NCBI RefSeq assembly: GCF_009914755.1
Contig: NC_060926.1
From: the human T2T-CHM13v2.0 reference genome, Homo sapiens
Length of the DNA: 64,000 nucleotides
Direction: 5' to 3' (one strand)
This document shows, in pieces, positions 60,855-61,220 of this stretch (the stretch's first letter is position 1; each line of letters opens with the position of its first letter). A model generated the notes under the pieces. The model made no database searches. It saw nothing but the letters and a program-made list of their open reading frames with translations, and was not told where the DNA came from. A program made the translations under genes and the position numbers.

Positions 60855-61220
60855 GTATTAGGAACACAAAATCAAAATCTCATTGATTCTAATAGAAGAA
60901 ATTGAAGGATTAAACATATTTCAGCATCAGTTGTGACTCTTCTTGAAGGGCTCACTTTGACATTTGTCTTCCCCTAGTGGTGAAATTCCTGTTTTCTTTG
61001 GAGCCTCAGTAGGAATTTTCTCCCCTACAGTTGGGCATCTCGCAGAAGATTCAGGGTCTTTTATAAGTCTAGGGATTGGGAGAAGATATCCTTGAAAGGA
61101 ACTAATCATGTATGTGGGAATAGTCTTCAGGGAGCCCCAACATGAGGCCTCCTTACCTGGTACTGGGAGCTGGTCACTTTTGAAAAATAAAAGAGAAGAA
61201 AGAAGATGAAAAATAAAAGA
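60855..61220 (-). pseudogene. highly decayed gamma-crystallin exon 3 relic (exon-equivalent about 60921-61174)
   Basis: Minus strand reads *IFCEMPNCR/GRKFLLRLQ...H*GKTNVKVSPSRRVT against [24 protein letters not shown]...[26 protein letters not shown] stop context identical to CRYGD; 3'UTR TGTGTTCCT motif; exon start ACC AGC TCC CA; acceptor tract resembles that of CRYGD. Confidence 0.8.

What the first reader, a model, noticed from the sequence alone, without database searches (positions are those of the whole stretch)
60855..61220. Decayed extra gamma-crystallin exon 3 upstream of CRYGB: relic of a lost cluster member
Seen: 2.8 kb upstream of CRYGB, on the same strand, the sequence aligns with crystallin exon 3 at several independent points. 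Plus strand CCTCAGTAGGAATTTTCTCCCCTACAGTTGGGCATCTCGCAGAAGATTCAG matches CRYGB CCTCAGCAGATACTGCCTCCCCCTGTAGTTGGGCATCTCATAGAGGATCCAG, and GACTCTTCTTGAAGGGCTCACTTTGACATTTG matches GACTCGTCTAAGAGAGCCAACTTTGGCATTTG. It translates, with frameshifts, to *IFCEMPNCRGRKFLLRL...H*GKTNVKVSPSRRVT, with both conserved Trp codons turned to stops. The stop context TGAAATATGT (60914-60923) is identical to CRYGD. A decayed polyA site is followed by TGTGTTCCT as in the CRYGD 3'UTR. The exon start reads ACC AGC TCC CA (61174), and the acceptor tract AAATAAAAGAGAAGAAA (tandemly doubled) resembles CRYGD 33976-33993. Inference: an ancient duplicated gamma-crystallin gene sat between gamma-B and gamma-A. I recall no annotation here, and the classical gamma-G fragment was described as exon-2 type. 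No exon 2 is recognisable in 61220-64000.
Basis: partly seen in the sequence, partly recalled or inferred. Interest (0 to 1): 0.8.

Follow-up and report, generated by a model that had tools for sequence, protein, structure and literature searches.

The report
Dead seventh gamma-crystallin gene relic
Between the human lens genes CRYGB and CRYGA lie the badly decayed remains of one more gamma-crystallin gene copy, apparently unannotated, which suggests the ancestral mammalian cluster held at least seven copies; it is a fossil with no sign of present function.

Summary
A profile of the four exon 3 sequences in the window (CRYGB, C, D, EP) matches window 61151-60860, minus strand. It covers 292 of 339 profile positions at 85.1 bits, E = 7.6e-26. 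The best of 500 dinucleotide shuffles scored 7.1 bits.

The match runs from the splice acceptor through the coding part, the stop codon and a degenerate poly(A) signal to the cleavage-site motif. It is of exon 3 type, single-copy in the genome and not CRYGGP, which lies at 2p16.3.

New here: a matching exon 2 relic lies 5.4 kb upstream on the same strand, just outside the window at 66614-66811 (35.8 bits, E = 4.7e-11). This makes it an unprocessed gene copy with intron 2 retained.

Both relics are about 60-62% identical to the gamma A-F majority. Both have background GC and CpG content. Their divergence is flat across codon positions (p = 0.34), whereas live genes show p <= 6e-4.

No promoter or exon 1 is detectable, and placement within A-F is unresolved.

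Verdict: an ancient tandem-duplicate pseudogene, neutral for most of its history and probably about as old as the A-F radiation. No annotation or publication was found. Interest is modest.

The parts
60860..61176 (-). Decayed gamma-crystallin exon 3 (motifs 3-4, the stop codon and the 3'UTR)
   Evidence: nhmmer gives 85.1 bits, E = 7.6e-26, for profile positions 44-335 of 339. The best of 500 shuffles scored 7.1 bits. The MAFFT alignment with A-F shows a 20-nt deletion near the 5' end, a 4-nt insertion and four 1-nt deletions. Identity to the A-F majority is 149/250 = 59.6% in the coding part.
61177..61237 (-). 3' end of intron 2: acceptor AG (61177-61178) and a polypyrimidine tract, doubled as a 26-nt tandem repeat
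   Evidence: TRF finds period 26, 2.2 copies, 96% matches at 61181-61237. The tract matches the 3' end of CRYGD intron 2 at 94% over 18 nt, twice, E = 0.06.
60921..60923 (-). Retained stop codon TGA in a context (TGAAATATGT, 60914-60923) shared with CRYGD
   Evidence: Alignment; sequence.
60860..60884 (-). Degenerate poly(A) signal (AATGAG at 60879-60884, aligned to AATAAA) and the cleavage-region motif TGTGTTCCT (60860-60868)
   Evidence: Alignments. The 3'UTR is 41/65 = 63.1% identical to the A-F majority; gamma-S gives 24/59 = 40.7%.
61051..61053 (-). First conserved Trp codon of the C-terminal domain, now TGA
   Evidence: Alignment; tblastn.
60974..60976 (-). Second conserved Trp codon, now TAG
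   Evidence: Alignment; tblastn.
61238..64000 (-). In-window part of the presumed former intron 2. The whole intron is about 5.4 kb and runs on to window coordinate 66613, beyond the window end. It holds later interspersed repeats. Upstream of it, OUTSIDE the window at 66614-66811 (L002 2614-2811 = chr2:208634614-208634811, minus strand), lies the decayed exon 2 (motifs 1-2), which belongs to the same feature.
   Evidence: Intron: blastn of the A-B intergenic region against the rest of the 84 kb finds repeat-family matches at 62966-63306, 63682-64045, 64330-64558 and 65563-65989, plus a many-copy element (depth up to 56), which I take to be an Alu, at 66014-66517. The hub table masks 63389-63753. 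Exon 2 relic: the exon 2 profile gives 35.8 bits, E = 4.7e-11, for profile positions 36-128. The best of 500 shuffles scored 1.4 bits. The exon 3 profile does not hit it. Identity to the A-F majority is 121/194 = 62.4%, with 39-nt, 9-nt and 1-nt deletions and a 4-nt insertion. It is single-copy in the genome.

Best explanation
This is the remnant of a seventh tandem copy of a gamma A-F-class gamma-crystallin gene. It is an unprocessed (genomic) pseudogene lying about midway between CRYGB and CRYGA, on their strand. Exon 3 is at window 60860-61176, exon 2 at 66614-66811, and a repeat-inflated intron 2 lies between them.

Shown: both exon relics are homologous to the matching exon types, they are colinear, and the 3' end of intron 2 and the A-F-type 3'UTR are retained.

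Inferred: it arose by the same tandem duplication process that built the cluster. It lost (or never had) coding function early. It has since drifted neutrally to about 60% identity, background base composition, many indels and stop codons, and an unrecognisable promoter and exon 1. It does nothing today; it is a molecular fossil.

Its degree of decay suggests an age comparable to the A-F radiation itself, which published work places before the monotreme/therian split.
For: Homology to the exon types:
- The exon 3 profile hit is 85.1 bits, E = 7.6e-26.
- The exon 2 profile hit is 35.8 bits, E = 4.7e-11.
- Shuffle maxima were 7.1 and 1.4 bits in 500 shuffles each.
- The exon types do not cross over. 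The exon 2 profile gives nothing on the exon 3 relic, and the exon 3 profile gives nothing on the exon 2 relic.

Gene-like arrangement:
- Both relics are on the same strand and in gene order, 5.4 kb apart.
- The exon 2 relic lies 8.7 kb from the CRYGB start and about 8.8 kb from the CRYGA start (coordinates from the hub table).
- The intron 2 acceptor tract is retained and no poly(A) tail follows the cleavage motif, so this is not a retrocopy.

A-F-class affinity:
- The 3'UTR is 63.1% identical to the A-F majority; gamma-S gives 40.7%.
- Overall, the relic is 55-57% identical to each of A-F against 41.5% to gamma-S for exon 3, and 58-62% against 49% for exon 2.

Long neutral decay:
- The exon 3 relic has GC 0.414 and CpG o/e 0.07, the same as its flanks. 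Live exon 3 sequences have GC 0.47-0.57 and CpG o/e 0.33-0.51.
- Differences from the A-F majority are flat across codon positions: 43/35/41%, chi-square p = 0.34. For gamma-A, B and C p <= 6e-4, and for gamma-S p = 4.5e-8.
- The ML branch is 0.57-0.94 substitutions per site, against 0.05-0.27 for the live A-D paralogues' terminal branches.

Not a dispersed repeat: both relics are single-copy in the genome.

Context: the A-F radiation preceded the Prototheria/Theria split, and the variable gamma genes 'repeatedly expanded and contracted' (PMC2929430, passages read).
Against: - No promoter, exon 1 or intron 1 relic is detectable upstream of the exon 2 relic, neither in the 84 kb nor in a targeted 1 kb search. 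A complete gene is therefore not demonstrated.
- Linking the two relics into one gene rests on position, strand and equal decay, not on any direct evidence.
- Protein-level methods see nothing. Pfam gives 0 families for 3 conceptual pieces. The genome-wide six-frame search with the CRYGD exon 3 peptide lists 39 matches at E <= 1, none here.
- The tree does not resolve placement. Bootstrap support is 27-47%, and AU tests cannot reject a position outside A-F (p = 0.19-0.36), with A/B/C (0.14-0.55) or with D/E/F (0.17-0.36).
- The age is not calibrated, and no other species could be examined.
Confidence: 0.85

Rival explanations
1. A dead-on-arrival partial duplicate. An unequal crossover or segmental duplication copied only exons 2-3 (or two separate fragments) without a promoter or exon 1, so no seventh functional gamma-crystallin ever existed.
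For: No promoter, exon 1 or intron 1 homology was found. Divergence is flat across codon positions (p = 0.34), as expected if there was never a period of coding constraint.
Against: The missing parts are short (9 coding nt in exon 1 and about 100 nt of conserved promoter). At about 60% identity they would fall below detection. A (CT)n microsatellite sits at about 66940-66990, where the promoter would be. The relic's regular mid-interval position fits a whole-gene tandem unit. A flat codon pattern also fits early death of a complete gene.
Confidence: 0.25
2. Transposed or retro-copied fragment, like CRYGGP: a piece of a gamma-crystallin gene or mRNA carried here by a mobile element.
For: There is a precedent. 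CRYGGP is a motif-2 fragment at 2p16.3 associated with a LINE (PMC3554465). It was located at chr2:51771605-51771745, 91% identical to CRYGD exon 2.
Against: The relic keeps the 3' end of intron 2 with its acceptor AG. It has no poly(A) tail. It lies inside the cluster on the cluster's strand. It has an exon 2 relic separated by an intron-sized gap rather than spliced onto it.
Confidence: 0.03
3. Chance similarity or low-complexity artefact.
For: Protein-level scores are weak: tblastn E = 0.001-0.005 in a 901-nt target and no Pfam hit.
Against: nhmmer gives E = 7.6e-26 and 4.7e-11. Of 500 shuffles, 0 reached even 10 bits. All four paralogues hit the same place colinearly.
Confidence: 0.01

Closest known systems
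CRYGEP and CRYGFP (human gamma-E and gamma-F pseudogenes)
   Same: They are unprocessed pseudogenes of the same three-exon gamma A-F family, derived from tandem duplicates, and lie in or near the same 2q33 cluster.
   Different: They are young and nearly intact. Exon 2 is 97-99% identical to CRYGD and exon 3 is 79-83% identical, with one shared in-frame TAG and, in FP, a frameshift. [quoted passage not shown] The relic is about 60% identical, has many indels and stops, has no recognisable promoter, and I know of no orthologue.
CRYGGP (classical 'gamma-G' fragment)
   Same: It is a non-functional piece of gamma-crystallin sequence outside the six named genes.
   Different: CRYGGP is an isolated motif-2 (second half of exon 2) fragment at 2p16.3, associated with a LINE and called a translocated remnant (PMC3554465). 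It is 81.6% identical to the A-F majority. The relic lies in the cluster, has both exon 2 and exon 3 with an intron between them, and is far older.
CRYBB2P1 (partial beta-B2 crystallin pseudogene)
   Same: It is a partial duplicate pseudogene inside a crystallin gene cluster (PMC3554465).
   Different: It is young and similar enough to its parent that gene conversion between them has been proposed. The relic is far too diverged for that.

Membership tests
gamma A-F-class gamma-crystallin gene (three exons; exon 2 = motifs 1-2, exon 3 = motifs 3-4) | Exon 3-type sequence homology | tested here: met
   85.1 bits, E = 7.6e-26 against the exon 3 profile; no hit with the exon 2 profile.
gamma A-F-class gamma-crystallin gene (three exons; exon 2 = motifs 1-2, exon 3 = motifs 3-4) | Exon 2 upstream on the same strand, separated by an intron | tested here: met
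   The exon 2 relic lies at 66614-66811 (outside the window), 35.8 bits, E = 4.7e-11, 5.4 kb upstream. That the two belong to one gene is inferred.
gamma A-F-class gamma-crystallin gene (three exons; exon 2 = motifs 1-2, exon 3 = motifs 3-4) | Short A-F-type 3'UTR with the poly(A) signal about 45 nt after the stop codon | tested here: met
   The 3'UTR is 63.1% identical to the A-F majority; gamma-S gives 40.7%. The stop context and cleavage motif are shared.
gamma A-F-class gamma-crystallin gene (three exons; exon 2 = motifs 1-2, exon 3 = motifs 3-4) | Conserved proximal promoter, exon 1 (ATG plus 2 codons) and a short intron 1 | tested here: not met
   A profile of the 5 upstream regions finds all 5 genes (355-403 bits) but nothing near the relic, even in a targeted 1 kb search.
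gamma A-F-class gamma-crystallin gene (three exons; exon 2 = motifs 1-2, exon 3 = motifs 3-4) | Phylogenetic position inside the A-F clade | tested here: inconclusive
   The ML trees nest it inside A-F with 27-47% bootstrap. AU tests reject none of 3 alternatives.
Functional beta/gamma-crystallin (Pfam Crystall Greek-key domain) | Open reading frame with a recognisable Greek-key domain | tested here: not met
   Multiple stops and frameshifts. Pfam finds 0 families for 3 conceptual pieces read with X at the stops.
Unprocessed (duplicated) pseudogene | Intron sequence retained, no poly(A) tail, located beside its paralogues | tested here: met
   Acceptor AG and a polypyrimidine tract homologous to CRYGD intron 2. 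No A-run follows 60860. It lies between CRYGB and CRYGA on their strand.
Interspersed repeat | Many copies in the genome | tested here: not met
   Each relic finds only itself in the whole assembly, 1 candidate each. No repeat library could be run.

The most novel reading that the evidence does not exclude
[quoted passage not shown] It would have been functional in stem mammals and might still be intact, or much better preserved, in some lineages such as monotremes, marsupials, or nocturnal or aquatic eutherians with hard lenses. [quoted passage not shown]
Probability: 0.3. Interest if true: 0.5.

Novelty: new member of a known kind. Interest (0 to 1): 0.35.

Why it matters
[quoted passage not shown] A seventh, very old dead copy between CRYGA and CRYGB would do two things:
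- It would raise the inferred gene number of the ancestral mammalian cluster.
- It would give a datable marker, in the form of shared disabling lesions across mammals, for when contraction of the family began.

Practically, it is too diverged to take part in gene conversion or to confuse variant calling, so it has no clinical weight. It also shows that DNA-profile searches find relics that protein-based pseudogene pipelines miss. The six-frame protein search here did not find it.

Tried and rejected
- Protein-level detection. tblastn gave only E = 0.001-0.005 in a 901-nt target. Pfam gave 0 families for 3 pieces. The genome-wide protein search missed the relic.
- Promoter, exon 1 and intron 1 relic. 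None was found in the 84 kb or in a targeted 1 kb search. By eye, a stretch about 80 nt upstream of the exon 2 relic resembles the CRYGA start-codon context. It has no statistical support and I do not claim it.
- Homology beyond the exon. Apart from about 18 nt of the acceptor tract, nothing colinear was found in 500 nt of either flank.
- Other relics. An expanded profile over 84 kb found none. A weak exon 3 hit at 4080-4137 (E = 0.038) did not recur.
- Placement among the paralogues. It is unresolved.
- Dating. Simple rate arithmetic on the excess distance (JC 0.52-0.56 for the relic against 0.19-0.32 for live A, B and C) gives implausibly large ages. I therefore give no number, only 'comparable to the A-F radiation'.
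- Soft-masking. The files carry no case information.
- Earlier-findings store.
- Literature. Eight full-text searches found no mention of a relic between CRYGA and CRYGB. The older primary papers (Brakenhoff 1990; Meakin 1985 and 1987; den Dunnen 1989) are not held. What I say of them is recalled or taken from the Wistow review.
- Cross-species comparison. No tool here holds another mammalian genome.

Full report
THE OBSERVATION

I read window 60600-61500 and the CRYGB exon 3 region.

Sensitive blastn (word size 7) of the four annotated exon 3 and four exon 2 sequences against 58400-64000 gave a clear pattern. The best hit of every exon 3 query fell in one place, on the same strand and colinear: 60914-61055, plus 61122-61150 for CRYGC. 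Identity was 68-83% and E ran from 3.6e-5 to 0.002. No exon 2 query gave E < 0.5.

A profile HMM of the four exon 3 sequences, searched over the whole window, matched 61151-60860 on the minus strand. It covered profile positions 44-335 of 339 at 85.1 bits, E = 7.6e-26. That is well above the cross-matches of the same profile to the genuine exon 2 sequences (24.6-42.9 bits). The exon 2 profile did not hit the segment at all, so it is of exon 3 type.

In 500 dinucleotide-preserving shuffles of the segment, the best score was 7.1 bits. The segment finds only itself in the whole assembly, so it is not a dispersed repeat as far as that search can tell.

ANATOMY OF THE EXON 3 RELIC

The MAFFT alignment with gamma-A to gamma-F and gamma-S shows a complete exon 3.
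- Acceptor AG lies at 61177-61178.
- The exon start ends at 61174.
- There is a 20-nt deletion, a 4-nt insertion and four 1-nt deletions.
- There are several in-frame stops, including both conserved Trp codons: TGA at 61051-61053 and TAG at 60974-60976.
- The original stop codon sits in a context shared with CRYGD (60914-60923).
- AATGAG stands where the paralogues have AATAAA (60879-60884).
- The cleavage-region motif lies at 60860-60868.

The polypyrimidine tract upstream of the acceptor resembles the 3' end of CRYGD intron 2 (94% over 18 nt, E = 0.06). It has been doubled as a 26-nt tandem repeat at 61181-61237. Beyond that, 500 nt of either flank shows no colinear homology to the flanks of the live genes.

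A retained intron end and the lack of a poly(A) tail mean this is a genomic copy, not a retrocopy.

BEYOND THE WINDOW: AN EXON 2 RELIC

The window's own assembly can be searched, so I fetched the next 20 kb (L002 and L003), which hold CRYGA. The exon 2 profile hit L002 2777-2681 on the minus strand, which is window coordinates 66681-66777. It covered profile positions 36-128 at 35.8 bits, E = 4.7e-11. The best of 500 shuffles scored 1.4 bits.

The exon 3 profile does not hit there. With the full alignment, the relic spans about 66614-66811. It is 121/194 = 62.4% identical to the A-F majority, with deletions of 39, 9 and 1 nt and a 4-nt insertion. It is single-copy in the genome.

It lies 5.4 kb upstream of the exon 3 relic, on the same strand and in gene order. 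The interval between them holds several later interspersed repeats, including a many-copy element (which I take to be an Alu) at 66014-66517. That can account for an intron longer than the 1-3.8 kb of the live genes.

By the hub table's coordinates, the exon 2 relic lies 8.7 kb from the CRYGB start and about 8.8 kb from the CRYGA start. A tandem unit fits neatly in the middle of this 17 kb gap.

No promoter, exon 1 or intron 1 relic could be detected. A profile of five upstream regions recovered all five genes at 355-403 bits but nothing else, even in a targeted 1 kb search. A (CT)n microsatellite sits where the promoter would be.

WHICH KIND OF GAMMA-CRYSTALLIN

- The exon 3 relic is 55-57% identical to each of gamma-A to gamma-F but 41.5% to gamma-S. 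For the exon 2 relic the figures are 58-62% and 49%.
- The 3'UTR is 41/65 = 63.1% identical to the A-F majority. The gamma-S 3'UTR is not homologous (40.7%).
- ML trees rooted on gamma-S nest the relic inside A-F, but with only 27-47% bootstrap support.
- AU tests reject none of the three alternatives: outside A-F, with A/B/C, or with D/E/F (p = 0.14-0.55).

So it is A-F-class by UTR architecture, overall similarity and location. Its sister paralogue is unknown. Gene conversion among the live genes blurs this history further: D, EP and FP exon 2 are 97-99% identical.

HOW LONG IT HAS BEEN DEAD

- Base composition. The exon 3 relic has GC 0.414 and CpG o/e 0.07 (one CpG), the same as its flanks (GC 0.42-0.45, CpG o/e 0.07-0.10). 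The live exon 3 sequences have GC 0.47-0.57 and CpG o/e 0.33-0.51. The exon 2 relic has 2 CpGs against 12-21 in the live exon 2 sequences.
- Codon positions. Differences from the A-F majority are flat across codon positions 1/2/3: 63/148, 51/147 and 60/146 (chi-square p = 0.34). For gamma-A, B and C p <= 6e-4, and for gamma-S p = 4.5e-8. Most of the relic's divergence therefore accumulated without coding constraint.
- Distances. Its JC distance to the majority is 0.52-0.56, against 0.19-0.32 for live A, B and C. Its ML branch is 0.57-0.94 substitutions per site.

I could not calibrate this, because simple rate arithmetic overshoots. Every indicator points to an age of the order of the A-F radiation itself. 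Kappé et al. place that radiation before the Prototheria/Theria split and describe this subclass as repeatedly expanding and contracting (PMC2929430, passages read).

WHAT IT IS NOT

- It is not CRYGGP. The Wistow review gives CRYGGP as an isolated gamma-D motif-2 fragment at 2p16.3, associated with a LINE (PMC3554465; passages and section 23 read). I found that fragment at chr2:51771605-51771745, 91% identical to CRYGD exon 2.
- It is not CRYGFP. CRYGFP lies about 1 Mb away at chr2:209625224-209627612 on the plus strand, as the review says.
- It is not visible to protein-based methods. Pfam gave 0 families for three pieces read with X at the stops. A six-frame genome search with the CRYGD exon 3 peptide listed 39 matches at E <= 1, none in this interval. 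This is a likely reason why it would escape pseudogene pipelines.

PRIOR KNOWLEDGE

The RefSeq table supplied with the finding has no row for this interval. Eight full-text searches found no mention of a gamma-crystallin relic between CRYGA and CRYGB. Neither did the passages I read in two reviews (PMC3554465; PMC13326903).

I could not read the older primary literature (Brakenhoff 1990, Meakin 1985 and 1987, den Dunnen 1989). I also could not check GENCODE or pseudogene.org. An existing record therefore cannot be excluded.

VERDICT

Three points remain open:
- whether it ever worked as a gene (rival reading: a dead-on-arrival partial duplicate, about 0.25);
- which paralogue it came from;
- how far back it is shared among mammals.

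No tool here holds another mammalian genome, so the third point could not be tested. It is a new member of a known kind. It is a tidy addition to the history of a classic gene family, with no present function and no clinical weight.

Noticed in passing
L015 (chr2:51771605-51771745, minus strand): A 141-nt fragment, 91% identical to CRYGD exon 2 positions 103-243. It matches the published description of CRYGGP at 2p16.3 (PMC3554465) and is 81.6% identical to the A-F majority.
   Followed up: partly
L006/L011 (chr2:209625224-209627612, plus strand): CRYGFP lies about 1 Mb from the cluster on the opposite strand and is absent from the supplied RefSeq table. Its exon 2 is 97% identical to CRYGD. 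It shares the in-frame TAG of CRYGEP, and its exon 3 has a frameshift.
   Followed up: partly
window 24295-24537 and 36129-36371: CRYGEP exon 2 is 99.2% identical to CRYGD exon 2, while their exon 3 sequences are only 82.6% identical. This is a signature of gene conversion confined to exon 2.
   Followed up: no
window 61358-61409: A second 26-nt tandem duplication (2.0 copies, 96% matches) lies about 180 nt into the relic's former intron 2. Its sequence is unrelated to the duplication at 61181-61237.
   Followed up: no
window 4080-4137 (minus strand): A weak exon 3-profile hit (7.2 bits, E = 0.038) that did not recur with the expanded profile at E <= 1. It is probably chance.
   Followed up: partly
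L002 2940-2990 (window coordinates about 66940-66990): A (CT)n microsatellite lies just upstream of the exon 2 relic, where a gamma-crystallin promoter would be expected. A similar simple repeat matches 23381-23410.
   Followed up: no
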